NCBI GenBank assembly: GCA_946184295.1
Contig: CAMHEZ010000001.1
Span: 137,977-201,976 of the forward strand
Direction of reading: 5' to 3'
Origin: an uncultured Clostridia bacterium
GTDB taxonomy: Bacteria; Bacillota; Clostridia; Oscillospirales; Acutalibacteraceae
DNA: 64,000 bases
Part shown: positions 35,499 to 53,294 of the stretch, piece after piece
Numbering within the stretch: position 1 is the stretch's first letter
Layout of the letters: each line of letters starts with the position of its first letter
Position numbers and translations under genes: made by a program
Notes under the pieces: generated by a model
Seen by the model: only the letters and a program-made list of their open reading frames with translations
Told to the model about the DNA's origin: nothing
The model's database searches: none

Positions 35499-38400
35499 AT
35501 GTGGAAAAAGCTAATCAGCGGGCTGCTGGCCACCTTCATGCTGGTCTCCGGCATTCCCGTGAGTGCGCTTTCCATTGAGAGCGACTGGATCGTGGAATTT
35601 CGTTCCGAGGAATTGGCGAAGGATTTTCTTTTGACACATGAGGGACGGCTGCTTGGCGGCGCCATGGTTCTCACCAGAGGTGAGAGCGGCGACTTTGACG
35701 GGCGGGCAGACGTGGTATCGCTGACAAAGGACGGTCGCGTCAAGGGCGCGGCGGTTTCGTTTAACGATCCGCGCAAAAACGATCAGTATTATCTGACCGA
35801 CAACGCGCTCAACGTCACGACCGCGTGGAATACGCTCGACGCGGCGCTCGCCGATAAGGGGCTGACCGAGGCGGACGCTTCGCCCATCCGTGTGGCGGTG
35901 ATCGACACCGGTGTAGACGGTTCCCACGAGGATCTGAAAAACCGCGTGACCGCCGGCTATGACGCGGTCAACGGCGTGGCGCTGCCCGCCGGAACCGACA
36001 GCGACGTTTCCGACGCATCACACGGCACAATGGTGGCGGGTCTGATTGCCGCCGAGGCGAACAATTCGGTCGGTATCGCGGGTGTTTCCTATACGCTGCC
36101 GGTGAGTATCGTGCCGGTGCGCGCGCTCGACGCGAACGCGAACGGCAAGCTCTCGGATATCATTGCCGCGATTTACTGGGCGGTGGACGAGGGTAACGCG
36201 GACATCGTGAATATGTCCTTCGGACTGCGCCGCCAATCCCGTCCCGCCGCGCTCGAAGCGGCGGTGAATCACGCGGTGGACAAAGGCGTGACGCTGATTG
36301 CCGCCGCCGGCAATGAGGGACGGTATGTCTCCTATGAAAACTATCATTATTACCCCGCCGCGCTGGAAGGGGTACTGGCGGTGGGTTCGCTTACCAAGAG
36401 CAGCTATGTTCGCTATTCCGGCTATATTCCGTCTTACTCTTCGTTTACGAATCGTATCAATACTTCGTCCGATGTCGGTAAGACCTTCTTCTATGTGGCA
36501 GGTGAAAATCTGCTCACCACCGCCAGGGGCAATACCTACGACACCTTCACCGGCACGTCCGCTTCGGCTGCGGTCTTTTCGGGCATGATGGCATCTTTGA
36601 TGAGCGTGAGCCGCGCGATTGACGGTGTGGAGCCGCAGGCGGTCATCACCACTACCAACGGCGGCGGCTATTATTCCTACCGCGTGAGCTATCACAGCTT
36701 CTCAGTGGCGGCGAGCAATCTCCGCAGCGGTCGGGTGATGGACGCGTGGTGGATCAACGACGCGCACTTCCCGACGCTGCTGCGGAACAGCGTAGAATTT
36801 TCCGGCACGCTGATGGACCCCTCCTATCAGATGAGCGGCGTGCGCGCCGTGCTGATTGATGGAGACGATCAGGTGACGGAACTGGATGCCGTGCCGCGCA
36901 TCGTGGATTCGGTGGGACAGTCGGTTTCCTTTGCGCTCGACAGTACACAGGTGGCGGACGGTGCCTATCAGCTCAACATCATCGGCACTTACGCTTCCCC
37001 CTCTTCGGCGGAAAACACCGAAATTATGCTGTATGAGCAGTCCGTCACTATCGACAACGCAGGCAAAAATTATCTGCTGTCGGTGTGGGAGGACGGCGAA
37101 CCGCTGATTGGCACGGAACTGACGCTGTATAACGCGGATGGCAACGAGATGCAGACCGGGCATACCGACAGCCTCGGCAATTATCCCGTGAGCGCGACGG
37201 CTGCCGACAAGGGCGGCGTGACGGTCGTGACGCAGGGGGAAGAGTGCCTGCACATTGACGAACTGGAAACCCACCCCCGCGACAACGCTTATCTGTTCAA
37301 CGAATCTCCCGCCACGCTGACGCTGACCGCGTCGGAGGAGACGCTTGCCAGGCTGGGCAATCTTCCCCTGACGCTGCGTCTGCCCGACGGGAGCAGCGCG
37401 GAACTGGTGACGATTACCGGCGGCAGTACGGCGGTGACAATTTGTTCTAACTGCCCGCTGACCTTTACGATCCGGGGCGACGCTCTTTCGTTAAGCAAAG
37501 AATTTTCCTTCGCGGACGGCGACAAGGTCTGGAATCTGGATGAGGAACTTTCGACGGATGTGACGCTGACGCTCGACAGTGCCTTTACGGACGCGAGCGG
37601 TATCCGTCTGTTGATCGGCGACAATGCCTATGAACTGCCCAAGGAGGGCGGCTCGGTTGTGACTGTCCCGGGCAAGTACGATGTTGCCGCGATTGTCTAT
37701 CGGCAGAACAGTGAAGACGGCAGCGACAAGGCGGATTATTTCAAAATTGCTTTCGGTCAACAGAATTTGACCAAAAATACCACACTTGCTATCGGCGCCT
37801 CCGTCAAGGCGGAACTCACGCTGGAAAAAGGCGATGTGAAGCAGAACGAGGATCAGCTTGTCACCCTGCGTTTCAGCGACAGCGAGGGAAGCCTCATCAC
37901 CGATGTGGGGACTATCTACACGCTCGAGGACGGAACGGAAAGCTGCGGCAGTACGCTCAGCAGCTATTCCCTCCGACTCAACCGCGCGGGGGAAGACGGT
38001 ACGTGGGAAGATCTCGACAGTCAGTATGTCGAGTGGAGCAGACAGGATGACGCGTTCGTTACGACGCTCTCCACCTCGATGATGGACAATGCGACTGGTA
38101 CTTACCGCATGCGTCCCCACAGCTATCAGCCGTGGCCGTTTACGTTCGGCGATCGCGACTGGCACACGTTCCAAGTGACTGCCGAGGAAACCAGCCCGTC
38201 CGCGCGGGTGAATTTCCGGTTTAACAATTACAACGGCTCGCAGGAATCAAACGCGGATTTCTGCGTGCTGCTCAAAGATGAAAGCGGCGCGTGGATGTCC
38301 CGTCAGGCGATGGCACCCTCCGATGCGTCCAGCGAGCCGTGTTATACCTTCCTGCCGGTGGGACAGCGTTATCAGGGCGCAATGACGGCACAGTGCTACT

Positions 38401-41400
38401 GTCCCGAGCTGGACGGCACTGCCGCGGTCACGGCGGTTTTTACCATTGACCTCACTGACAAAACAGCAGGCGACACGGTGGACATCACCCTCCAGCCCGA
38501 CAGAAGTTGGCAGATCACCCGTATCACCGCGCCTTCCGCCGCGGACAGTGCGTCCGCCGCAGGGACTTCGCCGGTGGGCGCTTCGGATCTGCCCGCTGAC
38601 GGCAGTGTCAACGGACAAACCGACGGCGTGGACAGTAAGGTATGCGGCGTGACGGTTTATCCCTTTGACCGGCTGCCCGACACGGGCGTGACGGGGTCGC
38701 GCAGCAATTATCTGAGCGGCATCGTATCGCAGAACCTCGGCGAGACGGCGGTTGACCTGACCTTCCGCGCTGTCAGAGGGACTTACACATTCGAAGCGGT
38801 TGTGACGCTCACGCATGATTTCAGCGGCAGCGGCAGTATCGCCGCTTCGCTTCCGCTCCATCCGACACTCTCCTGCGACCAAGCGGAATACCGTTCGGGC
38901 AGCGACGTGACATTGCGTTACAAGCTGCTGGACAGCTGCGGCAACGCGGTTAAGAATGTGATTTGCCGCTCCGATAACAGTGAAACCGCAAGCGACGGCT
39001 CCGCCGGGACGGTGCATCCGACGGCTTGCGTCACCGTGTACCGCGCCAACGGCGCGACAGTGGGACAATACACACTCTCCGACGTCTACGCGGACAGTGT
39101 GAAGCTCACAGGGCTGGCGGACGGCAAATACATTGCCTCCGTCACCGTAGAATGTCCGCTGCTCACCGCTACGGGTGAGACAGTCACCTTCACGGTGGGC
39201 GGTGAATCGCCGGTTGTGCCGGAAAAGGTCGTGGAAACGCCCGCGAATTTCTCCGCCAAAGCCAAAAGCGTTTCCTCCATCGAACTGAGCTGGGACGCGC
39301 CGACGGATGAAATCGCCGGATATGTGATTTACCGCGACGGCAGACCCTTCGGGGAAGTGGCGGGAAGCGCCGATTCCTATCTCGACGAAGGCATCACCGC
39401 CGACCGCTATTACAGTTACACGCTCTACGCCGTGGACAGCGAGGGCGACAGAAGCAAAGGCGCGACGGCGGGTTCCCGTCCGGCGGCGCGACCCGATACC
39501 ACCCCGCCGAGCGTGCCGACCAATCTGCGCGCGACGCTGATGGGTTCGGAAGTACTGTTGAGCTGGGCGCGTTCGACGGACAATGTCGCGGTGACAAATT
39601 ACATTGTGACCTGTGACGGCACGGAAGTGGGACGCACCTATAACCGCAGCTTTACCCACGCGGGACGGCTGCCGGGTCAGACCTGCGTCTACACCGTGTC
39701 CGCGATGGACGGCGCGGGCAACCGTTCGGCGGAATCCCGGTCGGTTTCCGTTGCCGTTCCGAACGTGAGCGGCATTACCGCCTCCACACTCACCTATCCC
39801 AGAAACAAGGTGGGCAATATCACCGGTCAGACCCTCACTGTCAACGCCAGAGCGACCGCGGATATCGCCACCGTCAGACTGACGGTGAATTTCACGCTGC
39901 TCGACGGCACGTCGGACAGCCTCACAACTGCTTTGACCGCTGACGGAAACGGCGCGTGGCTCGGCTCGGCTGACCTGCCCGATGAATTTGCGTCGGTGGA
40001 GCAGGCGACGCTCACCGCCTATCAATCCGGCGAAACCGAAGCCGCCGATACCAAGCAGCTGCTCACTTCGCCTGTTGCGCGCGCAAACGCGTTTACAGTG
40101 GCGCTCACCAATACGCAGAACCTGACCCTGCCCGATTTTGCGCAGACGGTCAATGTCACGCTCAGCGGCAGTGACGACCAATTTTCCGTCACCCGCACGG
40201 TTGAGCATTATGCCGGCAGCTTTGTCTGCTTCCCGCCGAACGCGTCGGATTATTGCGTGACCGTGACCGATGAGGACGGACGGGAACTGTACGTCCGCAC
40301 CGACATCACGATTACGGACGGCGGCAGCTTCACCGCCGACGCGTCCGATCTGGCAAAATCCCTGCGCGTGAAGCTCACCGGGCTGCCCGACGGCGTGGAC
40401 ATGACCGGCATTGCCGTCAGCGCGGAGGGGCGCTGGGCGACATACACCGGCGTGACCGACAGTCAGGGCTATATCATCTGGTCGGAGGGCGGTCAGTGGC
40501 TTTCCGTAGAACCGTCCAAGTGCTATTACGACATTGTCGGCGGCAGTTACTATCTGAGACTGCGCAGCGACGTGCAGACCCTCGCGACGGATGACAAGGT
40601 GTATGAAATCAACGGGATTTCTGAGAAATGCTATGTGACAGACCCAGTCAACGAGATGACGGTCGGGCTGGATACGACGACAGCGCAGGCAAAAACCATT
40701 ACCGCGCATATCCGAGATAAACATGGAACCCCCGCGAAAGGGGTGTCCGTGGAAATCGTCGGCAAGACGCGCAAGACAGTCATCACCGATGAGAACGGCA
40801 CGGCTTCCGCCAAAATCGGTCTGTATACCTACGACTTGGATGGTACCACCTATATTTGCGACGCTTGTGTGAATGTCCCCTGGCAGACCACCCCGGATGG
40901 CAGAATCTGGCAATCCAATGGCAACTCCTACACCCAGGATTCCTGCGATATCACGCTGACTGCTCAGTCCAATCAATTCAAATTTGTTCCCGACGTCAAG
41001 GTGTATCAGGACGGACAGAACCGACCCGTTTCCGACAGCGACGCGGCGGGCGCGGGCTGGTCTGCCCGTGTGATCCGTCCTTACAACGATTATAACCTCA
41101 TCGGCTACAACGGCGAGTGGAGCAACAGCGACCTCACGCTGACGGACGGCGACAAGGTAACGGTATATCTGTCGGCGGCACTTGGCACCCGCTCATGGAG
41201 AGGACAGTGTGAGGTGACGTTTGATTCTGCCAATCCCACCGTTTCACCCGAAATTGTAATCCACGAGGACAGTGCGCACCGCCTGACGCTCAACGCGCTG
41301 AACGGCGATATGCTGCCCGGCGTAGACAGACGTTTCCTTGTCTACAACAAAAATGGAGAACTGCTCAGCGACACCGTTTCTCATGCCGCGTTTGCCGACG

Positions 41401-44400
41401 TGAAGCTTCCCTACGGACAGCCGGTCACGGTTATCGCTACCTTTGACACCGCAAGCGACAAATCACTGCTCCAGTGGAAAAGCTATGGTGCGTGGGCGGA
41501 ATCTGTGAAATATACCAGTGACGGCAGCGGCGATCCCCTGCATTTTTCCGCCGCTTACGGCGTGTACTTCAACGACACCTTCTGGCGGGAAAACGGCTTT
41601 TCCGGCACGCCTACGCAGTACCGTCTGGACAACGGCGACTGGCGGGTCAACTTCCGCTACACCGCATGGGACGCGGACGGCACCAGAAGCAAATCTGACT
41701 ATATCATTCTGCCCGAAGGCGCGTATGACGTTGACTTGGGCAGCTATACCTCCTGCTCGACCTACAGCGAGGAAGACAACACCATCACGATCAATCAGAA
41801 GAAAATCGGCGGCAGACACAAAATTTGCAATTTCAGTTTCAGCATTCCCGCGGAGAAACTGGCTGCCAATCCTAGGATCGTGGCGTGGTTCGAGACGACA
41901 TTCATCAATGGCAAAGACTACACATCCCTCCCCTACGAGCTCAACCTGCGCCTCTCCGGCGTGAATCTGGGCGGTGGGAACAGTGTGTGTTATGATGACC
42001 TCACCGATCAGGGCGGTTATCCATTGACGGTCAGAAGCCAGCTTTACGGTCAGGGAAAGACCATTTCGATCTATGACGGTGATACGCTGCTGGTTTATCA
42101 GGCGATGCCGTCGCCGGAACTGACCTTCGATCTGCCATTGACAAAGGATATCGGAACCCATAAGCTGCGGGTAGTGGTATCGGACGGAACCATCGAGGAC
42201 GAAACTGACAAAGAGGTGGACGTCGTTTATGACGACCAGCCGGTGATTGACTCGGTGTATGTCACCTGTAACGGCATCGGCGGTATGCTGGTAGGCAAAG
42301 GTTCAGAGTATTTCAGCCCCTATTATACGCATAGGCAGGAGGATCATGTATCGGTCAGGGTACAGGCGCAGCATTCCGATCTGATTGAGAAAATGTGGGC
42401 GGTTGTCAGTCTGTCCAAAGGCAGCGTTAAAATCAACCTCACCAAAAAGAACGATAACGGGCTCTATGAGGGCAGTTCGGTTTGCGGATCTGCCAATAAT
42501 CCCGTTACCGGCATTGAGGTGAAATATCTCCAGAAGCCCGATACCCCCGATACGGTGCAGGGTTCCATTGACTTTGACACGCAGAGCAGCTATTATGACA
42601 TCGCCTTCTGGGAAGGTCCGACCGATGAACAGCGCGAGGCGCATCTCGTCAGTGTGGAGGACAATCCCGCGCAGGCGCAGGCGCTCAGCGACTGGGAGAA
42701 GTACGTCGATCTCATTCAGAACGGCGAACACATGGACAGCGACGAATTCTATGAAAAGCTCGACGAAGTCTACGGCGACGACGGCGAATGGACGCTGCCG
42801 ATTGCCAAGGGCGACAACGGCGAGGAATTCAGCATGACCTTCATCAAGGAAAGTGAGCGTGCCAAGGAATTTCTCGCGTCTGAAGACGCCTTCACCGTGC
42901 TGCTGGACGGCGAAAAGGTCAAAATGGGCTACGAAATTGAGTTCTGCGAGAACGGCGAGGACATCATCATTCACTACTACGGCGATCTGAGTCTCTTTTA
43001 TCCCCGCGTTCCCGAATCGGATACCGTTTCGGCGGACTGGTTCTGGGAGAAGGACTACGGCGGACATCAGCCAACCAAGCCCGCCGCGCCGGTCGTGAAG
43101 CCCAAGAAGGGAGGACCTTCCGTCGCGGGTGAACTGTTGCAGAAGGGCGTCGGTCTCGGGAATATGTATAACGGCTACAAGGATAACCCGGATTACAGCC
43201 AGTATTACGCCATTCTCAACGATCCCTGCGCCACGCCCGCCCAGAAAATGGCTGCCCAGCAGAAGCTGTGGATTAAGATGGGACAGCACGCGGGCGATTT
43301 AGCGATTGACACGATTTCGCAGATCGGACCCGACGAAACCGACGCCGGCACATGGGGGCATATGGCACTGGGCGGCGGTCTGGGCGTGATGGGCAAACAT
43401 TGGGATGACATCAATGCCGCGCTCAATGAGGATCCCACCAAAAACACCAGTCCCTGTGACGACGATGACGACGGTGACGATGACGACGACGATGACGACG
43501 ATGACGACGATGATGACGACGACGATGACGGCGGCAACGGCGACGGCAATCACAAAAAGAAAAAGAAGAAGAAAAAGAAGACCGCCGCTTTCGGTCACTT
43601 CCATCCTCTTGTTGACCCGTCGGGCAATATCTTCGAGGCAGTCGCCGATCAACCCGTGCAGGGCGTGACCGCGACCATCTATTACAAGAGCAGCGAGAGC
43701 GGCGAATGGGTCAAATGGGATTCCGAAGCCTACGATCAGCCCTCCAACCCGATGCTGTCGCATGAAGACGGTTACTACGGCTGGGATGTGCTCATGGGCA
43801 AGTGGAAGGTTGTCTTTGAAAAGGACGGCTACTTCCTCGCCGAGAGTGAGGAACTCGACGTTCCGCCGGAGCATACCGACGTGAATATCAGCCTTGTTTC
43901 CTCTGTTGCGCCGACTGTCACGGGCTTTACCGCGAAGGCGGACGGCGGCAGTGTCACGCTGACCTTCGACAAGTATATGCTGACGAAGGATATGCTGAGT
44001 GACGGCGCGATCAATGTCACGTTCGGCGGCGTCACGCCTGGCGGCAAGCTCACGGCGGTCAGTCCCAAGACTACCGCCAAAGGCAACAAGCAGTTTGTTT
44101 CCGCCAGCGATATCGCTGGCGGTGATGAGGTCGCCAAGCAATTCACTTACACCTTCGACGACCCGCTGCCCACCGGCGCGACGGTCAATGTCACCGTGAG
44201 CGACGAGGCGGCAGCCTACAACGGCATGACCCTGACGGAAGTCTATAACGGTTCCGTCGTGGTGCCGGAGAGCGACCCGGTGGTGTATGCCGATACGATG
44301 ACCTTTGAAGACGCTTCTCTGCTCGATAAAGCAGTAGGCGACACCTTCAAGATTGGCGAACTCACCTTCAACGGCACTCAGCCCGGAGCAGTTCAGTACG

Positions 44401-47400
44401 AATCGAGCGACGAGAGTGTTCTCACCGTCGATGAAAACGGCAATGTCACCGCTGTCGGCGCGGGCTACGCGACGGTTTGGGCAACCTGTGACACACTCGA
44501 AGCGGGACGTCCCGTACAGGTGACGCGCCAGCCGGTTGTCCCCGACGAGAGCGACAACGCGGTAGTGTTCTGCCGCAAGGATAACCTCATCTGGAACAAG
44601 GGCTGCTGGATGTGGTCGGACGGCGCGACGTATGGCGACGGCGACCCGGTTGAGGGCGACGGCAAATATCTTGCCCTGTCGTGGCGCATTCTCGAAAACG
44701 GCACGGAAAAGGCGGGTTCGGACGTGGCATCCGGCGCGATTGCGGTGAAGGAATACTACACCCCGACGAAAACCGGTACGCTCACCGGCGAAATCACCTA
44801 TCAGCTCTACACCTATCACGAGGGCAAGTGGACAGCGGTGGAAGGCAAGACCTACACCGCCACCAAGGACATGAACGTCGTGACCGTCACGGGTCTGAGC
44901 GTCAAGACGCCGCCCGCGACAGTGGGTATCGGCGACACGCTCAATCTCAATGAGCTGGTACTCAATGTCCACACCTCCGACGGTCTGACCAGCGAGGTGC
45001 CTTACGCGAAATTCTACCGCTGGAGCCTCACACCGTCCACCAAGCACGGTACGGTTCTCACCAAGTCCGATCGCGTACTCACGATCACCCATCCCGACAG
45101 CGGTCAGACCGTGGATATCGAACTGTGGGCTTCCACCGAGCATGATATTACCATCACGAATGACGGCAACGGTACTGCCAAGGCTTCCGTCGAGAAAGCT
45201 GACCCGGGCGACACCGTCACCCTGACTGCCACCCCGAAGGAGCATTACCGTCTCAAGGAATGGCAGGTGGTGTCCGGCAAGGTGACGATTACGGACAATC
45301 AATTCACCATGCCCGACACAGCGGTGACGATTCAGGCAATCTTCGAGCCTGACCATACGCTCACGCACTTCGCGGCAGTTGCCGCCGCCTGTGAGACGGA
45401 CGGCAGTATCGAATACTGGCACTGCGATGGCTGCGACAGGTATTTTGCCGACGCGGAAGCAAAGGAAGAAATCACGAAGGACGATATTCCGATTCCGGCA
45501 CCCGGTCACGACTGGGACGACGGCGCTGTCACGCAGGAACCCACCTGCGACAAGGACGGCACAAAGGTCTATACCTGCCGGCATGACGCCAGCCATACCA
45601 AGACCGAGACTGTTCCCGCGCTGGGGCATGACTTGCAGCTGGTTCCCGCTGTGGCAGCGACTTGCACCACAGACGGACATTCTGCCTATTATGAATGTCA
45701 GCGCTGCGGAAAGCTCTTTGCGGACGGCACGGCGGCGATTGAAATTACCGACCCCGCCAGCCTGACGATTGAAGCACTCGGCCACGATTGGGGCGAATGG
45801 GTAACTGTTACGCCTGCTTCGGAGAATACGGCGGGACTTGAAAGACGCGTCTGTTCGCGCGATGCGACGCACGAGGAAACCCGCGTGCTTCCCAAGCTGC
45901 CGCACACCCATGTACTGACCAAGACCGAAGAAGTCCCCGCGACCTGTGAGGAAGACGGCCACACCGCCTACTGGACATGTAACGGCTGCGGCAAACTCTT
46001 TGGAGATGCCGAAGGCAACACCGAAATCCAGAAGGAAGATACCGTTATCGCGGCAATCGGTCACGATTGGGACAACGGCGTTGTCACCACTGAACCGACC
46101 TGTACCGAGGACGGCGTGAAGACCTTCACCTGCCGTCGTGACGCAAGCCACACCAAGACAGAGCCTGTTGCCAAGTTGGGGCATGAATTGAAGCTCGTTC
46201 CGGCGGTTCCTGCGACCTGCGAATCCGACGGACATTCGGCCTATTATGACTGCACGCGCTGCGACAGACACTTTGCCGACGCGGCGGGCAGTGAGGAAGT
46301 GACCGACCTTGACGCGTTGGTCATTCCCGCCACGGGTCATGCCTACGGCAGCCCCGTCTGGAAATGGGATGCCGACCACACCGCGACCCTTACCCTGACC
46401 TGTTCGCACGATGCGGTGCATGTGCAGAATATTCCCGCGATTGTCACCCGTAAACTCACCGAACCCGCCTGTGAAACCGACGGCGTGATTCTCTATACGG
46501 CGCTGGTGACGTTTGACGGGGTGACTTACACCGACAACAAGACCGAGAGTGTACCCGCGACGGGTCACAAGCTGACCCTGACGGCGGCGGTGGAACCCAC
46601 TTGCGAGAAGAACGGTAGCACTGCTTACTACGTCTGCGAACACTGCGGCAAGTGGTTCGAGGACGCGACCGCGTCGGTGGAAATCACCGACAAGAGCAGC
46701 GTGGTGATTCCCGCGCTGGGTCATGATTACGGCAATCCGGCGTGGAATTGGAGCGCCGACGATCAGGCGACGGTGTCCTTTACCTGCCGCCACGACGACA
46801 GCCATGTGAAGACCGTCACGGCGACGGTCACAAGCGAGAGAACCGAACCTACCTGTCTGCACGACGGACAGCTTGTCTACACCGCGACGGCGAAATATGA
46901 CGGCAGAACCTACACGAATACCAACACCGTCAGATTTCCCGCACTCGGTCATGAATTGCACCTGATTCCGGCGGTAGCACCGACCTGCGAAAAGGGCGGC
47001 AATATCGAATATTACCTCTGCGAGCGTTGCAACAAGCTGTTTGCGGACGCGGAAGGCAAAACCAAAATCAAGTTGGAGGATACGATTCTCCCCGCCAAGC
47101 AGCACGATTGGAACGGCGGCGTTGTGACCACTGAACCGACCTGCACCGAGGACGGCGTGAAGACCTTTACCTGTCTGAACGACCCGAACCACACCAAGAC
47201 CGAATCGGTGCTCGCGCTTGGTCACAAGCTCAAAGCGATTCCTGAAATGCCTGCGGCTTGTGAATCCGAAGGCCGCATGGCGTATTATGAGTGCAAGACC
47301 TGCGGCAAGTACTTTGCCGACGCGACGGGTCTGGTGGAAATCACTGACCTGAGCGTTCTCACGATTCCGGCGATCGGTCATGCCTACGGCAAACCGAGCT

Positions 47401-49487
47401 GGCACTGGAGCGAAGAAAACGCCGCGACAGCGGTATTCACCTGTGAGCACGATGCGGCGCACACCGAAACCGTGACGGCTACGGTTACGGCTGATAAATC
47501 CGAGGCCGACTGTGAGAAGGCAGGTCGCATCACTTACACGGCGGCGGTCATCTTCGGCGGCAAGACCTACACCGACAGTAAGACGGTCAAGGTACCCGCA
47601 CTTGGACACAAACTCAAACATGTAGAAGCAATTCCCGCGACCTGCGAGACCGACGGTCACACCGAACACTGGATTTGTACGCAGTGCGGCAAATATTTTG
47701 CCGACGAAAGCGGCGCGACCGAAATCAGTGCGGACGATGTAATTCTTGAAAGATTCGGTCACGATTGGGACGACGGGGTTGTCACGCTGGCTCCGACCTG
47801 CGAGACCGACGGCGTGAAGACCTACATCTGCAAGCACGACGCAAGCCACACCTGCACGGAAGTGATTCCGGCGACGGGACACACGCTGACATTCGTTCCG
47901 GCGGTGCCCGCGACCTGCGAGACCGACGGCAGTATCGCGTATTATGTGTGCGATACCTGCGGCAAGCGATACGCAGACGGCACGGCGGCAGTGGAAATTA
48001 CCGGCGATATCACCGTACCGGCACTCGGTCACGATTGGGGAATGTGGTTAGTTACCAAGCCCGCCACTGAATCCGAAGAAGGCTTGGAAGTCCGTATTTG
48101 CCAGCATGACCCGTCACATAGCGAAACCCGCGTCATTCCGGCGCTTGGTCATATGCACAAGCTGACCAAGACCGAAGCGGTTGCGGCAACCTGTGAGGCA
48201 GACGGCCATATCGCCTATTGGACGTGCGACGGCTGCGGCAGGCTGTTTGCCGACGCGGCAGGCGCAAAGGAAATCGAGAAGGAAGATACCATTCTGGTAA
48301 AACTTGGGCACGACTGGGACAACGGTGTGGTTACGCTTGACCCGACCTGTGAGGAGGACGGCGTGAGAACCTACACCTGCCGCAACGACGCAAGCCATAC
48401 CAGAACGGAGGTCATTTCCGCCACAGGGCATGAATTAAGGCTGGTTCCGTCCGTGGCGGCGACGTGTGAAACAGACGGTCACAAAGCATATTATGAATGT
48501 GAGATCTGCGGCAAGCTCTTTGCGGACATTGCCGCGCAGACGGAAATTACCTTCTATGACACCGTGATTCCCGCCATCGGCCACCGTTACGGTGAACCGG
48601 TCTGGACGTGGCACGACGACAACACCGTTGAGGCGGTATTTACCTGTGCCAACGATGCGGCGCACACACCGACTCTTTCGGCGACCGTCATGAGCGAAAC
48701 CGTCCAGGCGACCTGTGAAGCGGACGGTAAAACGGTTTACACCGCGACCGTTGCATTTGAGGGCAAGACCTATACTGACAGCAAAATCGTACTGCTCCCG
48801 GCACTGCATCACGACTGGGACGACGGCGTTGTAGAGCTGTCGGCGGACGGCAGCGATTACGTCGTGCGCTTCACCTGCCGAAATGACGCAAGCCATACCC
48901 GCATTTCTCCGCTGAACTTGATGCCACCGAGCGAGGATTACTACTATTACACCGTTCACACATCGTACCCCCAGAACAGCGACGAAGACGCACGCTTTGT
49001 CGTTAAGCGCCGCGGCGATGACACGGCGACTTACAGCAAATTCCTCGGTATCGCGGTGGATCACCGGAATGTGGCGCCGGATTGCTACGTCACCTTCCCT
49101 GGCAGTGTGGTTATTGACCTCAAAGCCTCCTACCTGCGTACGCTGGCGGTAGGGAAACACACCCTGCGCGTGATATTCACCGACGGCTATGTAGATACCT
49201 CCTTTATGATTACGGCAGCCGCATCCACACCGGCCCAACCGGTTACACCGGTTCAGCCCACACCTGCGGCACCCCATAAACCCGTGCCCACGCCTGTGGA
49301 ACCCACACCTGCGGTGCCCGATAAACCCGTGCCCGCACCTGTGGAACCCACACCTGCGGCGCCTGATACCGGCAAGTCCGATTCACCGCGAACGGGCGAG
49401 GGCAGCTTTGCGGCGGTATGGCTGATGATGAGCGCCTCTCTGTGCGCTATGTTCACAGCAATCAGAAAAAGACGCGAGGAAGCATAA
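35499..49487 (+). CDS. Giant (4,662 aa) cell-wall-anchored surface protein: signal peptide, S8 subtilase head, Ig/FN3/Big_2-like domains, Cys/His module array, SPRTG sorting signal
   Basis: One uninterrupted ORF with AAGGAGG RBS. S8 triad context: VAVIDTGVD, HGTMVAG, GTSASAA. Two FN3-like units lie at about 39240-39750. The C-terminus is SPRTGE plus a hydrophobic helix plus RKRREEA. Confidence 0.9.
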   Translation: MWKKLISGLLATFMLVSGIPVSALSIESDWIVEFRSEELAKDFLLTHEGRLLGGAMVLTRGESGDFDGRADVVSLTKDGRVKGAAVSFNDPRKNDQYYLTDNALNVTTAWNTLDAALADKGLTEADASPIRVAVIDTGVDGSHEDLKNRVTAGYDAVNGVALPAGTDSDVSDASHGTMVAGLIAAEANNSVGIAGVSYTLPVSIVPVRALDANANGKLSDIIAAIYWAVDEGNADIVNMSFGLRRQSRPAALEAAVNHAVDKGVTLIAAAGNEGRYVSYENYHYYPAALEGVLAVGSLTKSSYVRYSGYIPSYSSFTNRINTSSDVGKTFFYVAGENLLTTARGNTYDTFTGTSASAAVFSGMMASLMSVSRAIDGVEPQAVITTTNGGGYYSYRVSYHSFSVAASNLRSGRVMDAWWINDAHFPTLLRNSVEFSGTLMDPSYQMSGVRAVLIDGDDQVTELDAVPRIVDSVGQSVSFALDSTQVADGAYQLNIIGTYASPSSAENTEIMLYEQSVTIDNAGKNYLLSVWEDGEPLIGTELTLYNADGNEMQTGHTDSLGNYPVSATAADKGGVTVVTQGEECLHIDELETHPRDNAYLFNESPATLTLTASEETLARLGNLPLTLRLPDGSSAELVTITGGSTAVTICSNCPLTFTIRGDALSLSKEFSFADGDKVWNLDEELSTDVTLTLDSAFTDASGIRLLIGDNAYELPKEGGSVVTVPGKYDVAAIVYRQNSEDGSDKADYFKIAFGQQNLTKNTTLAIGASVKAELTLEKGDVKQNEDQLVTLRFSDSEGSLITDVGTIYTLEDGTESCGSTLSSYSLRLNRAGEDGTWEDLDSQYVEWSRQDDAFVTTLSTSMMDNATGTYRMRPHSYQPWPFTFGDRDWHTFQVTAEETSPSARVNFRFNNYNGSQESNADFCVLLKDESGAWMSRQAMAPSDASSEPCYTFLPVGQRYQGAMTAQCYCPELDGTAAVTAVFTIDLTDKTAGDTVDITLQPDRSWQITRITAPSAADSASAAGTSPVGASDLPADGSVNGQTDGVDSKVCGVTVYPFDRLPDTGVTGSRSNYLSGIVSQNLGETAVDLTFRAVRGTYTFEAVVTLTHDFSGSGSIAASLPLHPTLSCDQAEYRSGSDVTLRYKLLDSCGNAVKNVICRSDNSETASDGSAGTVHPTACVTVYRANGATVGQYTLSDVYADSVKLTGLADGKYIASVTVECPLLTATGETVTFTVGGESPVVPEKVVETPANFSAKAKSVSSIELSWDAPTDEIAGYVIYRDGRPFGEVAGSADSYLDEGITADRYYSYTLYAVDSEGDRSKGATAGSRPAARPDTTPPSVPTNLRATLMGSEVLLSWARSTDNVAVTNYIVTCDGTEVGRTYNRSFTHAGRLPGQTCVYTVSAMDGAGNRSAESRSVSVAVPNVSGITASTLTYPRNKVGNITGQTLTVNARATADIATVRLTVNFTLLDGTSDSLTTALTADGNGAWLGSADLPDEFASVEQATLTAYQSGETEAADTKQLLTSPVARANAFTVALTNTQNLTLPDFAQTVNVTLSGSDDQFSVTRTVEHYAGSFVCFPPNASDYCVTVTDEDGRELYVRTDITITDGGSFTADASDLAKSLRVKLTGLPDGVDMTGIAVSAEGRWATYTGVTDSQGYIIWSEGGQWLSVEPSKCYYDIVGGSYYLRLRSDVQTLATDDKVYEINGISEKCYVTDPVNEMTVGLDTTTAQAKTITAHIRDKHGTPAKGVSVEIVGKTRKTVITDENGTASAKIGLYTYDLDGTTYICDACVNVPWQTTPDGRIWQSNGNSYTQDSCDITLTAQSNQFKFVPDVKVYQDGQNRPVSDSDAAGAGWSARVIRPYNDYNLIGYNGEWSNSDLTLTDGDKVTVYLSAALGTRSWRGQCEVTFDSANPTVSPEIVIHEDSAHRLTLNALNGDMLPGVDRRFLVYNKNGELLSDTVSHAAFADVKLPYGQPVTVIATFDTASDKSLLQWKSYGAWAESVKYTSDGSGDPLHFSAAYGVYFNDTFWRENGFSGTPTQYRLDNGDWRVNFRYTAWDADGTRSKSDYIILPEGAYDVDLGSYTSCSTYSEEDNTITINQKKIGGRHKICNFSFSIPAEKLAANPRIVAWFETTFINGKDYTSLPYELNLRLSGVNLGGGNSVCYDDLTDQGGYPLTVRSQLYGQGKTISIYDGDTLLVYQAMPSPELTFDLPLTKDIGTHKLRVVVSDGTIEDETDKEVDVVYDDQPVIDSVYVTCNGIGGMLVGKGSEYFSPYYTHRQEDHVSVRVQAQHSDLIEKMWAVVSLSKGSVKINLTKKNDNGLYEGSSVCGSANNPVTGIEVKYLQKPDTPDTVQGSIDFDTQSSYYDIAFWEGPTDEQREAHLVSVEDNPAQAQALSDWEKYVDLIQNGEHMDSDEFYEKLDEVYGDDGEWTLPIAKGDNGEEFSMTFIKESERAKEFLASEDAFTVLLDGEKVKMGYEIEFCENGEDIIIHYYGDLSLFYPRVPESDTVSADWFWEKDYGGHQPTKPAAPVVKPKKGGPSVAGELLQKGVGLGNMYNGYKDNPDYSQYYAILNDPCATPAQKMAAQQKLWIKMGQHAGDLAIDTISQIGPDETDAGTWGHMALGGGLGVMGKHWDDINAALNEDPTKNTSPCDDDDDGDDDDDDDDDDDDDDDDDDGGNGDGNHKKKKKKKKKTAAFGHFHPLVDPSGNIFEAVADQPVQGVTATIYYKSSESGEWVKWDSEAYDQPSNPMLSHEDGYYGWDVLMGKWKVVFEKDGYFLAESEELDVPPEHTDVNISLVSSVAPTVTGFTAKADGGSVTLTFDKYMLTKDMLSDGAINVTFGGVTPGGKLTAVSPKTTAKGNKQFVSASDIAGGDEVAKQFTYTFDDPLPTGATVNVTVSDEAAAYNGMTLTEVYNGSVVVPESDPVVYADTMTFEDASLLDKAVGDTFKIGELTFNGTQPGAVQYESSDESVLTVDENGNVTAVGAGYATVWATCDTLEAGRPVQVTRQPVVPDESDNAVVFCRKDNLIWNKGCWMWSDGATYGDGDPVEGDGKYLALSWRILENGTEKAGSDVASGAIAVKEYYTPTKTGTLTGEITYQLYTYHEGKWTAVEGKTYTATKDMNVVTVTGLSVKTPPATVGIGDTLNLNELVLNVHTSDGLTSEVPYAKFYRWSLTPSTKHGTVLTKSDRVLTITHPDSGQTVDIELWASTEHDITITNDGNGTAKASVEKADPGDTVTLTATPKEHYRLKEWQVVSGKVTITDNQFTMPDTAVTIQAIFEPDHTLTHFAAVAAACETDGSIEYWHCDGCDRYFADAEAKEEITKDDIPIPAPGHDWDDGAVTQEPTCDKDGTKVYTCRHDASHTKTETVPALGHDLQLVPAVAATCTTDGHSAYYECQRCGKLFADGTAAIEITDPASLTIEALGHDWGEWVTVTPASENTAGLERRVCSRDATHEETRVLPKLPHTHVLTKTEEVPATCEEDGHTAYWTCNGCGKLFGDAEGNTEIQKEDTVIAAIGHDWDNGVVTTEPTCTEDGVKTFTCRRDASHTKTEPVAKLGHELKLVPAVPATCESDGHSAYYDCTRCDRHFADAAGSEEVTDLDALVIPATGHAYGSPVWKWDADHTATLTLTCSHDAVHVQNIPAIVTRKLTEPACETDGVILYTALVTFDGVTYTDNKTESVPATGHKLTLTAAVEPTCEKNGSTAYYVCEHCGKWFEDATASVEITDKSSVVIPALGHDYGNPAWNWSADDQATVSFTCRHDDSHVKTVTATVTSERTEPTCLHDGQLVYTATAKYDGRTYTNTNTVRFPALGHELHLIPAVAPTCEKGGNIEYYLCERCNKLFADAEGKTKIKLEDTILPAKQHDWNGGVVTTEPTCTEDGVKTFTCLNDPNHTKTESVLALGHKLKAIPEMPAACESEGRMAYYECKTCGKYFADATGLVEITDLSVLTIPAIGHAYGKPSWHWSEENAATAVFTCEHDAAHTETVTATVTADKSEADCEKAGRITYTAAVIFGGKTYTDSKTVKVPALGHKLKHVEAIPATCETDGHTEHWICTQCGKYFADESGATEISADDVILERFGHDWDDGVVTLAPTCETDGVKTYICKHDASHTCTEVIPATGHTLTFVPAVPATCETDGSIAYYVCDTCGKRYADGTAAVEITGDITVPALGHDWGMWLVTKPATESEEGLEVRICQHDPSHSETRVIPALGHMHKLTKTEAVAATCEADGHIAYWTCDGCGRLFADAAGAKEIEKEDTILVKLGHDWDNGVVTLDPTCEEDGVRTYTCRNDASHTRTEVISATGHELRLVPSVAATCETDGHKAYYECEICGKLFADIAAQTEITFYDTVIPAIGHRYGEPVWTWHDDNTVEAVFTCANDAAHTPTLSATVMSETVQATCEADGKTVYTATVAFEGKTYTDSKIVLLPALHHDWDDGVVELSADGSDYVVRFTCRNDASHTRISPLNLMPPSEDYYYYTVHTSYPQNSDEDARFVVKRRGDDTATYSKFLGIAVDHRNVAPDCYVTFPGSVVIDLKASYLRTLAVGKHTLRVIFTDGYVDTSFMITAAASTPAQPVTPVQPTPAAPHKPVPTPVEPTPAVPDKPVPAPVEPTPAAPDTGKSDSPRTGEGSFAAVWLMMSASLCAMFTAIRKRREEA
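45354..48915 (+). repeat. Array of about 23 GH-delimited Cys/His mini-modules (coding repeat)
   Basis: Recurrent (P/A)xxGH boundaries with four module classes. An identical peptide, GVVTTEPTCTEDGVKTFTC, occurs twice. Confidence 0.8.
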
Positions 49488-49607
49488 CGATGCGATTGCC
49501 CCGGATGATGGACGGGGAGAGAGATGGGAAATCCGTCTCACTCCCCGCGTCAATGGGAACTATGGGAATGGATGCAGGGCGTTTGCGATGAAAGGAGAAT
49601 GGTAGCC

Positions 49608-49976
49608 ATGCAGAAATGGCTCGAAGCACTAAAAGAAAAACTCACCGGGAACAAAAAGGCGGCATTGCTGCTTGGCGTCGTCGCGCTGCTACTGGTGTTG
49701 TCAGCGGTTGTTCTGAAGATGGGGAACGGTAATCCATTATACGGAAACTGGATTTTAGATGAAGTAACCGGCTATGAGTTTGACCGCAACGGCAAAGGTG
49801 TCATGTCGGTGCAATCTTCGGAATATCCCTTTACGTATCAAATTGACGGCGATCAACTATTCATTGATTTTGAATTGGAAAGCGCTGCCGACAGGACATA
49901 TACTTATACGATCGACGATGATGTGCTGAAATTGTCGGCCGGCGGCCAGCACTATGAGATGAAAAAACGAAAGTGA
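49608..49976 (+). CDS. Small membrane-anchored protein (lipocalin-like beta domain?)
   Basis: MQKWLEALKEK..., one TM, then GNWILDEVTGYEFDRNGKG...YTYTIDDDVLKL. AGGAG lies 10 nt upstream. Confidence 0.6.
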   Translation: MQKWLEALKEKLTGNKKAALLLGVVALLLVLSAVVLKMGNGNPLYGNWILDEVTGYEFDRNGKGVMSVQSSEYPFTYQIDGDQLFIDFELESAADRTYTYTIDDDVLKLSAGGQHYEMKKRK

Positions 49977-53000: not shown

Positions 53001-53294
53001 GTAGACAAGGGAGAGTTCCGCGCCCCGGACGATGTCGGCGGCGGCACCACGGAGGATATCGACAATATCCACAAGAAGTTTGATGCGCAGGCCAAGAATG
53101 ACAATACTGCTCCGCAGCAACCCACCAAGGCCGAGCCTGTCAAAACAGAACCCGCCAAGACTGAGCCGGTAAGGACAGAGTCCGTTTCCCGTGACAATGC
53201 GAGAATGGACTACACATTTAGAAATACGTCTCAGGGAAGCGGCAGACACAGTTCGCAGGGCGTGAGTTTTCCGCGCTACAGGGACGATAAGTAA
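50019..53294 (+). CDS. Sensor HD-GYP c-di-GMP phosphodiesterase with extracytoplasmic two-component-regulator beta-propeller and Y_Y_Y domains
   Basis: Signal/TM segment, many (G)L(P/S)S..V.(S/A)I..D..G.(L/I)W(I/V)(G/A)T propeller repeats, a Y_Y_Y-like region (YQLQGFDD..), a TM, and an HD-GYP core (LLHDIGK...HHERPDGKGYP). TTG start 8 nt after AGGAG. Confidence 0.85.
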   Translation: MSCKIIKSCISSCLLILLVLSSQLPTVWAASTGDSSNHTLAVDPTGKNNGYSAVLYDNTNGLPTSEANALATTSDGFLWIGSYSGLIRYDGNTFERIDSTTGVASVVSLFVDSKDRLWIGTNDSGVAVMEKDNFKFYTKSDGLRSSSIRSIVEAPDGSIYIASTQGVSIIDTDMQLTPVNDIQINDEYIRSLQMGSDDVIYGVTNSGAVFTMQDGKLTAFYNAEDMGIMGIRAILPDSSNPGCIYVGTGGSEVYYGRLQNGLQTSKTYDISPLDYVNSLAQVGGQVWVNADNGMSVLKNDVASMLENLPVNSSIEGVMTDYQGNLWVASSKQGVMKIVPNQFTDIFQRYALTSDVIKATCMYNDMLLIGSKNNGLTVVDNSGVVESFPVEQAITASGEPLEADDLIAMLAGCRIRSIVCDSKNRVWIATYGENALLRYDNGIVTRFSEADGLPSERVRTVFERQDGSFMVACSGGLAIIEDDVVTQVYNEASGINNTEVLTAIETKNKNMIIGTDGDGIYFLKDGKASHVGIDAGLSSEVVMRLKEDVSRDVVWVVTSNSLAYMNEIGQVTTVKNFPYSNNFDLYENSDGDMWILSSNGIYVVSADELIANGDINPIYYGRDNGLSCIATANSYSGLTKSGNLYIAGTTGVAKVNIETSFENVTDVKMTVPYIEVDGVRVYPDAKGTITIPSDAKKVTIYSYIFNYSLMNPQVTYQLQGFDDHGTTVKRSELVPIDYTNLRGGKYRFVMQLADTDGSSGKDLTVDIVKEKALHEWLWFQLVCGALGLLLVAGVVLIYIHRKTQAFLKKEKQQKQLIREIVEAFAKVIDMKDSYTNGHSTRVAQYTVMLAKELGYDEETVEQYYNIALLHDIGKVGIPPEVLNKPGKLTDEEFRTIKSHTTLGYNTLKGISIMPELAIGAGAHHERPDGKGYPNGLKGDQIPRVAQIIAIADTFDAMYSNRPYRKRMNFEKAVSIIKGARGTQLTADVVDAFLRLVDKGEFRAPDDVGGGTTEDIDNIHKKFDAQAKNDNTAPQQPTKAEPVKTEPAKTEPVRTESVSRDNARMDYTFRNTSQGSGRHSSQGVSFPRYRDDK

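What the first reader, a model, noticed from the sequence alone, without database searches (positions are those of the whole stretch)
45354..48915. About 23 tandem GH-delimited Cys/His mini-modules in an extracellular protein: candidate undescribed repeat family
Translating this 3.5-kb stretch gives 23 consecutive 30-70-aa modules. Each opens with (P/A/K)xxGH, with variants PHTH, KQH and LHH. Four classes recur:
- Class 1 (11 copies, 3 Cys): GHxLxxVPAxxATCExDGxxxYYxCxxCGKxFAD..EIT
- Class 2 (6 copies, 2 Cys plus 2 His): GHDWDxGVVTxEPTCxEDGVKT(F/Y)TCxxDxSHTxTE
- Class 3 (2 copies): GHDWGxW..PAxExxxGLExRxCxxDxxHxETR
- Class 4 (4 copies): GHxYGxPxWxW....FTCxHDxxH.....PxCxxDGxxxYTAxxxFxGKTYTD

The classes alternate quasi-periodically (1-2-1-3, 1-2-1-4-1-4...). 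The CxxC knuckle plus invariant His spacing resembles zinc-ribbon/treble-clef metal sites, yet the host protein is secreted and sortase-anchored. I cannot assign this to a named domain from memory.
Basis: partly seen in the sequence, partly recalled or inferred. Interest (0 to 1): 0.75.

Follow-up and report, generated by a model that had tools for sequence, protein, structure and literature searches.

The report
Zinc-clasp stalk repeats in surface protease
The 3.5-kb stretch really encodes 23 small Cys/His modules near the wall-anchored end of a giant bacterial surface protease; they most likely form a stiff stalk held together by zinc, belong to a very large family with no database model, and were first noticed in 2025 in one gut IgA protease but never solved or tested for metal.

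Summary
ORF 35499-49487 (+) encodes a 4,662-aa protein with a signal peptide, an S8 protease and an SPRTG wall anchor. Residues 3284-4470 form 23 His-started Cys/His modules in the stated classes and order.

"Undescribed" is only partly right.
- Pfam and NCBIfam have no model of the module, and Foldseek finds no solved fold.
- The modules are homologous (E 1e-19) to the ZBD1/ZBD2 (= CTD2/CTD4) domains of the Thomasclavelia ramosa IgA protease. Two 2025 papers called these putative zinc-binding, rod-like "periscope" domains, from AlphaFold models and SAXS only.

New findings here:
- The family is very large: about 59,700 clusters at 50% identity, mostly from gut and rumen Clostridia.
- The ligand positions are 99-100% conserved. 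Cys and His interchange at the last ligand position.
- Covariation and predicted strand topology both point to zinc sites that bridge modules. Each site takes one hairpin-tip Cys from module n and a His...C...C/H triad from module n+1.
- Where the tip Cys is lost, the next module usually starts HxH.

Best reading (0.7): a zinc-stapled stalk of up to about 100 nm that projects the protease from the cell wall. Metal binding is untested. I file it as a new member of a barely characterised kind, of moderate interest.

The parts
35499..49487 (+). Gene for the 4,662-aa surface protein that carries the array
   Evidence: Single ORF. Pfam finds Peptidase_S8, fn3, Big_2 and Flg_new_2.
35499..35573 (+). 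N-terminal signal peptide (MWKKLISGLLATFMLVSGIPVSALS)
   Evidence: Read from the translation. Inferred from the sequence pattern; no predictor was run.
35886..36659 (+). Subtilisin-like S8 protease domain (aa 130-387), triad D136/H175/S354 intact
   Evidence: Pfam PF00082, E 3e-39. Triad motifs DTG, HGT and GTSAS found.
45144..45353 (+). Flg_new_2 (divergent InlB B-repeat) domain directly before module 1 (aa 3216-3285)
   Evidence: Pfam PF18998, E 1e-14. The IgA protease has the same order, with a B-repeat-like CTD1 before CTD2.
45348..45503 (+). Module 1, class 1 (H3286, tip C3298, C3309, C3312). First in the array, so it has no preceding tip Cys; it starts PDHTLTH.
45504..45623 (+). Module 2, class 2 (H3337, tip C3350, C3360, H3366)
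45624..45779 (+). Module 3, class 1 (H3377, tip C3389, C3400, C3403)
45780..45899 (+). Module 4, class 3 (H3429, tip is E3442 instead of Cys, C3452, H3458)
45900..46058 (+). Module 5, class 1, starting HxH (H3469 + H3471, tip C3483, C3494, C3497)
   Evidence: AF2 model, pLDDT 95.
46059..46178 (+). Module 6, class 2 (H3522, tip C3535, C3545, H3551)
   Evidence: AF2 gives three strands with the tip Cys in the b1-b2 turn.
46179..46334 (+). Module 7, class 1 (H3562, tip C3574, C3585, C3588)
46335..46562 (+). Module 8, class 4. It is a double sheet: 4a (H3614, C3635, H3641) and 4b (tip C3658), with no ligands at the 4a/4b junction.
   Evidence: AF2 pLDDT 94.7, with a long strand running through both sheets.
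46563..46718 (+). Module 9, class 1 (H3690, tip C3702, C3713, C3716)
46719..46946 (+). Module 10, class 4 (H3742, C3763, H3769; tip C3786)
46947..47096 (+). Module 11, class 1 (H3818, tip C3830, C3841, C3844)
47097..47219 (+). Module 12, class 2, starting KQH (H3869, tip C3882, C3892, H3898)
47220..47375 (+). Module 13, class 1 (H3909, tip C3921, C3932, C3935)
47376..47603 (+). Module 14, class 4 (H3961, C3982, H3988; tip C4005)
47604..47756 (+). Module 15, class 1 (H4037, tip C4049, C4060, C4063)
47757..47876 (+). Module 16, class 2 (H4088, tip C4101, C4111, H4117). It also holds C4120, the only Cys in the region not assigned as a ligand.
47877..48026 (+). Module 17, class 1 (H4128, tip C4140, C4151, C4154)
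48027..48146 (+). Module 18, class 3 (H4178, tip is E4191 instead of Cys, C4201, H4207)
48147..48305 (+). Module 19, class 1, starting HxH (H4218 + H4220, tip C4232, C4243, C4246)
48306..48425 (+). Module 20, class 2 (H4271, tip C4284, C4294, H4300)
48426..48578 (+). Module 21, class 1 (H4311, tip C4323, C4334, C4337)
48579..48803 (+). Module 22, class 4 (H4362, C4383, H4389; tip C4406)
48804..48908 (+). Module 23, terminal degenerate class 2/3 (LHH start, H4438, C4460, H4466). It has no tip Cys, as expected for the end of an array.
48909..49214 (+). C-terminal beta-rich domain of about 100 aa between the array and the linker (aa 4471-4572). It has no family match.
   Evidence: Translation. 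Also present in homologues P0125 and P0002.
49215..49379 (+). Pro-rich linker containing a 45-bp x 2.5 tandem repeat
   Evidence: TRF hit at 49257-49368; translation
49383..49484 (+). Cell-wall sorting signal: SPRTG, a hydrophobic helix, then RKRREEA
   Evidence: Same SPxTG type as SPQTG in the T. ramosa IgA protease and SPKTG in homologues P0125 and P0002.

Best explanation
The 23 modules are small three-stranded beta-sheet units that most likely bind one structural Zn(II) at each module junction. Together they form a long, stiff, rod-like stalk just outside the cell-wall anchor. The stalk holds the N-terminal S8 protease and the intervening domains away from the cell surface.

Proposed site at each junction (inferred):
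- Three ligands come from the base of module n+1. These are the start His (the 'GH' His), the Cys that ends strand 2, and a Cys three residues later (class 1) or a His six residues later (classes 2-4).
- The fourth ligand is the Cys at the beta1-beta2 hairpin tip (TCxxDG) of module n.
- The metal therefore staples consecutive modules end to end.

Where the tip Cys is missing (class 3, Cys replaced by Glu), the next module supplies a second His (HxH). Inside class 4 the 4a/4b junction has lost all four ligands together, and one long strand bridges it instead.

What is shown: the sequence pattern, its conservation, the homology, the confident predicted fold, and the covariation.
What is inferred: zinc as the metal, the exact ligand sets, the rigidity, and the stalk function.
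For: 1. Ligand positions are nearly invariant in 2,939 unique modules from 258 proteins. The start His is conserved in 99.8% and the strand-2 Cys in 99.9%. A following C/H ligand is present in 99.3%: CxxC 64%, Cx5H 25%, Cx4C 5.5%. Cys and His alternate at the same ligand position within homologous modules. Class 1 has 3 Cys and class 3 has 1. Both facts fit metal binding and not disulfides.

2. In the window, 54 of 55 Cys fall into 23 four-ligand sites. Module 1 has three clear ligands.

3. AF2 models are confident: 1-2-1 unit pLDDT 95.4, pTM 0.68; 1-4-1 unit pLDDT 94.7, pTM 0.65. In module 6 the strands are 61-64, 72-78 and 85-90. That puts H55, C78 and H84 at one end of the sheet. Tip C68 sits at the other end, next to H95 of the following module.

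4. Covariation across junctions. In 1,564 unique adjacent pairs, a non-Cys tip is followed by HxH in 83 of 111 cases, against 18 of 1,453 when the tip is Cys (Fisher p 1e-94). The effect survives collapsing to 50% identity clusters: 20 vs 19 clusters without a tip Cys, against 5 vs at least 122 with one.

5. Modules at array ends. A tip Cys is followed by another H..C..C/H triad in 239 of 270 cases, against 21 of 89 when the tip is not Cys (p 2e-30). True array ends lack the tip Cys, as in the window's module 23. Some homologues end in a mini-cap, 'GH..C..CG', carrying the base ligands only.

6. The modules are homologous to T. ramosa IgA protease ZBD1/ZBD2, E 1.2e-19. Published AF3 models place Cys/His sites at subdomain interfaces. 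SAXS of isolated CTD2 fits an extended rod. The published ligand counts fit the shared-site scheme. ZBD1's first subdomain starts EEHTH and each ZBD1 site is 2His+2Cys. ZBD2's last site is 3Cys+His, although that subdomain holds only two Cys.

7. Position of the array. It lies directly upstream of the wall anchor in the window. It ends a median of 124 aa from the C-terminus in homologues whose N-terminal 'business' domains vary widely.
Against: - No metal analysis or experimental structure exists for any member. The IgA protease cryo-EM model stops at N876, before ZBD1.
- I could not read model coordinates, so ligand geometry comes from strand order, not from measured distances.
- The covariation may be inflated by shared ancestry of a 'class 3 + HxH class 1' di-module. 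About half of the tip-less clusters do not show HxH.
- Glu at the tip of class 3 could itself be a ligand.
- PMC12237041 describes flexible linkers between the C-terminal domains of the IgA protease from SEC-SAXS, so rigidity over 23 modules is an extrapolation.
- A role beyond spacing, such as binding, is not excluded.
Confidence: 0.7

Rival explanations
1. The modules are primarily binding units, forming a multivalent adhesin for host, dietary or bacterial ligands. Any metal only stabilises them. The array is the functional part, not a spacer.
For: Partner domains in homologues are typical of adhesins and fibrillar surface proteins: LRR_5, Flg_new, cohesin, Big_2, Cadherin-like. The order of all 23 modules is conserved in the 4,615-aa orthologue P0125, which suggests selection on more than length. 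In many homologues the modules are scattered between other domains rather than forming one stalk.
Against: The conserved positions are almost only ligands, Gly, Pro and aromatic core residues; the rest varies, with same-class identity of 37-78%. The ZBD domains are dispensable for IgA cleavage in the IgA protease. No known binding family matches.
Confidence: 0.12
2. The Cys residues form disulfides, as in EGF-like extracellular modules, and no metal is bound.
For: The protein is extracellular, where disulfides are the usual use of Cys. IgAse1-7 needed reducing agent to remain monodisperse.
Against: Class 1 has 3 Cys and class 3 has 1. The start His is invariant (99.8%) and His replaces Cys at ligand positions, which a disulfide model does not explain. 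The IgA protease authors saw no disulfides in structures or models. They attributed the DTT effect to a different Cys, C251 in the NTD. The hosts are gut and rumen Clostridia MAGs, presumably strict anaerobes living in a reducing habitat; this last point rests on general knowledge.
Confidence: 0.04
3. The sites bind metal, but the role is metal handling or sensing rather than mechanics. The array could be a zinc or other transition-metal reservoir or buffer at the cell surface. Alternatively it could be a switch that folds and extends only when zinc is available.
For: There would be 23 sites in one protein, and up to 53 matched stretches in homologues. PMC12415215 itself speculates that CTD2/CTD4 function may be regulated by environmental zinc.
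Against: Fully coordinated Cys/His tetrahedral sites are typical of tight structural zinc, not exchangeable stores; this rests on general knowledge and on the argument. No transporter or metal regulator lies next to the gene.
Confidence: 0.08

Closest known systems
ZBD1/ZBD2 (= CTD2/CTD4) of the Thomasclavelia ramosa IgA protease (IgAse/ThomasA, UniProt Q9AES2; PMC12237041, PMC12415215)
   Same: Direct sequence homology, E 1.2e-19, and the only significant PDB-sequence hit. The class 1 pattern matches closely (EEHTHNLTLVAAKAATCTTAGNSAYYTCDGCDKWFADATGSVEITDKTSVKIPAPGH), as do the class 3-like modules. Both are three-stranded sheet subdomains with Cys/His sites at subdomain interfaces. Both proteins follow the order B-repeat-like domain, then modules, then SPxTG wall anchor, and both carry an N-terminal protease.
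   Different: The IgA protease has only 3 + 2 subdomains, split by an Ig-like barrel. The window has 23 modules (27 sheets) in one uninterrupted array. The Cx2Dx2H closure (class 2) and the double-sheet class 4 are not described there. The protease is S8 here and M64 there. Neither case has experimental metal or structure data.
Periscope Proteins / fibrillar-adhesin stalks (SasG/Aap G5-E, Rib, SHIRT; PMC9704523)
   Same: Wall-anchored, with a rod-like array of small beta modules between the anchor and a distal functional domain. Like G5-E, the modules are single-layer sheets with little hydrophobic core.
   Different: The repeats here are diverged (DNA identity at most 76%, no TRF hit), and the copy number and order are identical in the orthologue. 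The defining near-identical, length-variable repeats are therefore absent. Stabilisation would come from intramolecular Cys/His zinc. Aap instead uses intermolecular, acidic-ligand zinc.
Zinc ribbons (e.g. TFIIS C-terminal domain) and classical C2H2 zinc-finger knuckles
   Same: A three-stranded sheet with a Cys knuckle at a hairpin. The class 1 motif Y-x-C-x-x-C-G-K-x-F mimics the C2H2 knuckle and produces weak hits to C2H2 fingers. PMC12237041 notes a distant resemblance of subdomain I to the TFIIS zinc domain.
   Different: There is no significant sequence or fold match: Foldseek best E is 0.08-0.39 with TM at most 0.21. Each module has only one CxxC. The ligand set is split between neighbouring modules. 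The setting is extracellular and tandem, not nucleic-acid binding.
Pfam PF23674 RYYR-CCHC domain
   Same: It is the only Pfam model that repeatedly touches the modules, at the tip-Cys...YY-C-x-x-C segment.
   Different: Matches cover only about 25 of 79 profile positions. In the six homologues scanned no stretch passes on its own. The summed score on the window's repeat region (46.5 bits) comes from partial hits. It is not a model of this module.

Membership tests
IgA-protease-type ZBD / CTD2-CTD4 module (T. ramosa) | Significant sequence similarity to ZBD1/ZBD2 | tested here: met
   phmmer E 1.7e-15. Profile E 1.2e-19, with three matched stretches at chain 850-906, 935-986 and 1102-1140. With a +29 offset these are ZBD1 subdomains I and III, and ZBD2.
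IgA-protease-type ZBD / CTD2-CTD4 module (T. ramosa) | Conserved His/Cys ligand pattern giving 2His+2Cys or 3Cys+His sites | tested here: met
   All 23 window modules carry H...C...C/H. 20 of them also have a tip Cys. The pattern is 99-100% conserved across 2,939 modules.
IgA-protease-type ZBD / CTD2-CTD4 module (T. ramosa) | Three-stranded up-and-down beta-sheet subdomains arranged end to end | tested here: met
   AF2 secondary structure with pLDDT 95. The end-to-end arrangement is inferred from topology and pTM 0.65-0.68; coordinates were not viewable.
IgA-protease-type ZBD / CTD2-CTD4 module (T. ramosa) | Zinc actually bound | not testable with these tools
   Not shown experimentally for any member.
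Periscope Proteins (sensu PMC9704523) | Cell-wall attachment with a distal functional domain | tested here: met
   SPRTG sorting signal and an N-terminal S8 protease.
Periscope Proteins (sensu PMC9704523) | [quoted passage not shown] | tested here: not met
   Same-class DNA identity averages 59-71% and peaks at 76%. TRF finds nothing in 45348-48908.
Periscope Proteins (sensu PMC9704523) | Repeat-number variation between close strains | tested here: inconclusive
   The one full-length orthologue (P0125, 4,615 aa) has the identical 23-module order. No strain-level set was available.
Pfam PF23674 RYYR-CCHC | Full-length domain match above the gathering score | tested here: not met
   Per-unit scores are 13-15 bits against a cutoff of 27. 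Coverage is about 25 of 79 profile positions in the window and in six homologues, where no stretch passes alone.
Classical zinc ribbon | Two Cys knuckles of one domain forming one site; fold similarity to solved ribbons | tested here: not met
   There is one CxxC per module at most. Foldseek against PDB gives 0 hits at E <= 1e-3 for both models.
C2H2 zinc finger | beta-beta-alpha fold with two His on a helix | tested here: not met
   Only the Y.C..CGK.F knuckle matches (E 2e-5 or weaker, short stretches). AF2 shows no helix bearing His.

The most novel reading that the evidence does not exclude
These modules define a very large, still unnamed family of extracellular 'zinc-clasp' stalk repeats in anaerobic Gram-positive gut bacteria. 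In this reading each junction is stapled by a metal site shared 1+3 between neighbouring modules, taking the role that disulfides or isopeptide bonds play elsewhere. Stalk stiffness or extension, and with it the reach of the surface enzyme or adhesin, would then depend on zinc availability in the gut. Host zinc sequestration could collapse these surface structures.
Probability: 0.2. Interest if true: 0.75.

Novelty: new member of a known kind. Interest (0 to 1): 0.5.

Why it matters
Tens of thousands of large surface proteins of gut and rumen Clostridia carry this module: 59,667 clusters at 50% identity, with up to 53 matched stretches per protein. No domain database names it, so these regions are annotated as 'hypothetical' or mislabelled as zinc fingers or RNA-polymerase subunits.

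Recognising the module as a zinc-stapled stalk would have three uses:
- It would improve annotation of microbiome surface proteomes.
- It would give a structural rationale for how anaerobes build long rigid extracellular rods without disulfides.
- It suggests a testable link between zinc availability and the display of surface enzymes and adhesins.

The junction-sharing ligand scheme and its compensatory HxH switch are concrete predictions for the groups already working on the T. ramosa IgA protease.

Tried and rejected
- Pfam and NCBIfam scans of the whole protein, the region and single units gave no family for the module. PF23674, DUF7128, zf-C2H2, rubredoxin and similar hits are partial knuckle matches, and the same is true in homologues.
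- Literature searches for 'RYYR-CCHC' / 'RYYR' and for other descriptions of such repeats found nothing beyond the T. ramosa papers.
- Foldseek of both AF2 models against PDB gave no hit at E <= 1e-3.
- The search for related loci with alignment A1 failed because it had no conserved 7-10 column stretch. It was repeated with a single sequence.
- Exact look-ups of the giant protein and of the Tex protein found no public record, so the source organism stays unidentified. The best relative is an uncultured Clostridia MAG at 80%.
- TRF found no DNA-level tandem repeat in the array.
- I considered the 'self-contained module' model, with the start His, tip Cys and closing pair all from one module, and rejected it. 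In the AF2 topology the start His and the tip Cys lie at opposite ends of the hairpin. The cross-junction covariation also argues against it, as do the ligand counts published for the IgA protease.
The tools return no coordinates.
Full report
**Observation.** The finding lies inside one ORF, 35499..49487 (+), of 4,662 aa. The protein has these features:
- a signal-peptide-like N-terminus;
- an S8 subtilase domain (aa 130-387, E 3e-39) with an intact D136/H175/S354 triad;
- fn3, Big_2 and Flg_new_2 domains;
- a C-terminal Pro-rich linker, then SPRTG, a hydrophobic helix and RKRREEA, which is a sortase-type sorting signal.

The motifs occur nowhere else in the six frames of the window. Cys and His are enriched about fourfold over the rest of the protein.

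Refinements to the observation:
- Class 3 is class 2 with the hairpin-tip Cys replaced by Glu.
- Module 23 also lacks the tip Cys.
- Class 4 aligns as a class-2/3-like half (4a) plus a class-1-like half (4b) that has lost its start His and its CxxC. The array therefore holds 27 small sheets.
- Modules 1-8 and 15-22 are a diverged eight-module higher-order repeat, with 57% aa and 65% DNA identity.
- Same-class modules share only 37-78% aa and at most 76% DNA identity. TRF sees no DNA tandem repeat there.

**Database status.** Pfam and NCBIfam have no model of the module.
- Only partial zinc-knuckle matches appear. PF23674 RYYR-CCHC matches at profile positions ~31-55 of 79, scoring 13-15 bits per unit. 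zf-C2H2, zf_UBZ and DUF7128 also give weak matches.
- The same partial pattern holds in six homologues, where no stretch passes on its own.
- A sequence search of all PDB chains gives one real hit: 9qa6_A, the Thomasclavelia ramosa IgA protease (E 1.7e-15 with the region, 1.2e-19 with a profile).
- The matched segments are chain 850-906, 935-986 and 1102-1140. With a +29 offset these are ZBD1 and ZBD2 of that enzyme.
- The remaining hits are C2H2 fingers that share only the Y.C..CGK.F knuckle.

**Literature.** Two 2025 papers describe those domains.
- PMC12237041 calls them ZBD1/ZBD2. It describes elongated chains of three-stranded up-and-down sheets, with putative Zn sites of 2His+2Cys or 3Cys+His at subdomain interfaces. 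[quoted passage not shown] The cryo-EM model ends at N876, so the ZBDs were never seen experimentally.
[quoted passage not shown] SAXS of isolated CTD2 fits a fully extended rod.
- The family is therefore not strictly undescribed. It is known from one protein and from predictions only.

**Structure prediction.**
- AF2 on modules 5-7 (1-2-1, 16-sequence alignment) gave mean pLDDT 95.4 and pTM 0.68.
- AF2 on modules 7-9 (1-4-1, 13 sequences) gave pLDDT 94.7 and pTM 0.65.
- Class 2 is three strands (61-64, 72-78, 85-90 in the query). The tip Cys (C68) sits in the beta1-beta2 turn. C78 ends strand 2 and H84 immediately precedes strand 3.
- Class 4 is two sheets joined by one long strand.
- Foldseek of both models against PDB (to April 2026) found nothing at E <= 1e-3. 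The best hits were E 0.39 and 0.08 with TM at most 0.21.

**Family size and distribution.**
- A word-indexed search saturated at 7,623 protein clusters.
- An exhaustive profile search of 1.84 billion representatives found 59,667 proteins at E <= 1e-3, 33,790 at <= 1e-10 and 9,283 at <= 1e-30. Proteins reach 7,583 aa, with up to 53 matched stretches each.
- In species-representative genomes the carriers are mostly gut and rumen MAGs: Oscillospiraceae, Lachnospiraceae, Ruminococcus, Faecalibacterium, Christensenella, Erysipelotrichaceae, Peptococcaceae and Eggerthellaceae.
- The closest relative of the window's array is an uncultured Clostridia MAG at 80% identity.
- Partner domains vary: Flg_new, LRR_5, Cadherin-like, PQQ_2, SLH, CW_binding_2, cohesin and Big_2. 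Source annotations are 'hypothetical' or misleading.
- Arrays end a median of 124 aa from the C-terminus.
- The 4,615-aa orthologue P0125 has the same 23-module order.

**How the sites are built.** I parsed 3,775 modules (2,939 unique) from 258 proteins with three HMMs made from the window's modules.
- The start His is conserved in 99.8% of modules and the strand-2 Cys in 99.9%.
- A closing ligand follows in 99.3%: CxxC 64%, Cx5H 25%, Cx4C 5.5%.
- The tip residue is Cys in about 90%, and Glu is the main alternative.

Four lines of evidence say the tip Cys of module n belongs to the site of module n+1, not to its own module.

1. Topology. In the AF2 model the start His, the strand-2 Cys and the closing ligand lie at one end of the sheet. 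The tip Cys lies at the opposite end, next to the start His of the following module.

2. Covariation across junctions. Among 1,564 unique adjacent pairs, a non-Cys tip is followed by an HxH start in 83 of 111 cases. With a Cys tip it is 18 of 1,453 (p 1e-94; 30 proteins). After collapsing to 50% clusters the contrast remains: 20:19 against 5:122 or more. The window shows this twice. E3442 is followed by PHTH, and E4191 by GHMH.

3. Array ends. A module with a tip Cys is followed by another H..C..C/H triad in 239 of 270 cases, against 21 of 89 without a tip Cys (p 2e-30). True ends, including module 23 here, lack the tip Cys. Some homologues end in a base-only cap, 'GH..C..CG'.

4. Published ligand counts for the IgA protease fit only this scheme. 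ZBD1's first subdomain starts EEHTH, and every ZBD1 site is 2His+2Cys. ZBD2's last site is 3Cys+His, although that subdomain contains two Cys.

In the window the scheme assigns 54 of 55 Cys to 23 sites. Only module 1 has three clear ligands, with H3290 or D3285 as candidate fourths. The 4a/4b junction has lost all four ligands together and is bridged by a continuous strand instead.

**Mechanism.** My best-supported reading (confidence 0.7) is a chain of 27 small sheets stapled end to end by 23 structural zinc ions. It would form a stiff stalk immediately outside the wall anchor and project the S8 protease and the other distal domains.
- Length estimate. Extrapolating about 37 A per sheet gives up to about 100 nm if the array is fully extended. 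The per-sheet figure comes from the roughly 110 A reported for the three-subdomain ZBD1. This is an extrapolation, not a measurement.
- Shown: the sequence pattern, conservation, homology, confident fold prediction and covariation.
- Inferred: the metal identity, the exact ligand sets, rigidity and function.

Rival readings:
- Adhesive repeats (0.12).
- Metal buffering or a zinc-dependent switch (0.08).
- Disulfide-bonded modules (0.04). This one is contradicted by the odd Cys counts, the invariant His and the Cys/His exchange.

**Comparison and membership.**
- By sequence and pattern the modules belong to the IgA-protease ZBD/CTD2-CTD4 kind. The features tested were met; zinc binding could not be tested.
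- They work like periscope or fibrillar-adhesin stalks but fail the defining criterion of near-identical, length-variable repeats.
- They are not classical zinc ribbons, not C2H2 fingers, and not members of PF23674.

**Novelty and verdict.** The array is a new, much larger member of a kind first noticed in 2025. The family-level picture here appears to be new: about 60,000 clusters, four module types, 1+3 shared sites and the compensatory HxH switch. It rests on computation only. Interest is moderate (0.5). The finding matters for annotating microbiome surface proteins and offers clear experiments, but it is not a categorically new system.

Noticed in passing
window 43455-43580 (aa 2653-2694 of the giant ORF): An extreme charge-block: C-D5-G-D18-GGNGDGNH followed directly by K9. 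A long poly-Asp run abuts a poly-Lys run in the middle of the surface protein.
   Followed up: no
window 43299-48032, minus strand: A 1,577-aa antisense ORF without stops lies wholly inside the plus-strand gene and covers most of the repeat array. It is probably a by-product of the codon composition of the repeats.
   Followed up: no
window 49257-49368: A 45-bp x 2.5 tandem DNA repeat (89% matches) encodes the Pro-rich linker (PVPxPVEPTPAxPDK) just before the SPRTG anchor. It is the only DNA-level tandem repeat in the gene's 3' part.
   Followed up: partly
window 53502-61753: A downstream pilus-like locus. It encodes an FctA-like isopeptide-domain protein, a DUF7601 protein, a sortase (55657-56433) and a 1,790-aa SpaA/Cna_B/DUF7601 protein.
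   Followed up: no
window 50019-53291 and 49524-49973: Immediately downstream of the giant gene lie a DUF5640/lipocalin-like 150-aa protein and a 1,091-aa Reg_prop/Y_Y_Y + HD_5 (HD-domain) protein.
   Followed up: no
window 32621-35320: A YfhO-family membrane protein (E 6e-146) lies directly upstream of the giant surface-protein gene.
   Followed up: no
homologues P0121, P0122: Some family members carry arrays of 32-37 modules made of class 1 only. Others (P0128, P0211) scatter single modules between other domains. The mixed 1-2-1-3/4 pattern of the window is one architecture among several.
   Followed up: partly
homologues P0003, P0012, P0182: Arrays that end with a tip-Cys module are closed by a mini-cap, 'GH(D/N)Y..G.C..CG', just before the membrane anchor. 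The cap has base ligands only and no sheet, as if to complete the last metal site.
   Followed up: partly
window 48909-49214 (aa 4471-4572): A beta-rich domain of about 100 aa sits between the last module and the Pro-rich linker. It has no family match but is conserved in homologues P0125 and P0002.
   Followed up: no
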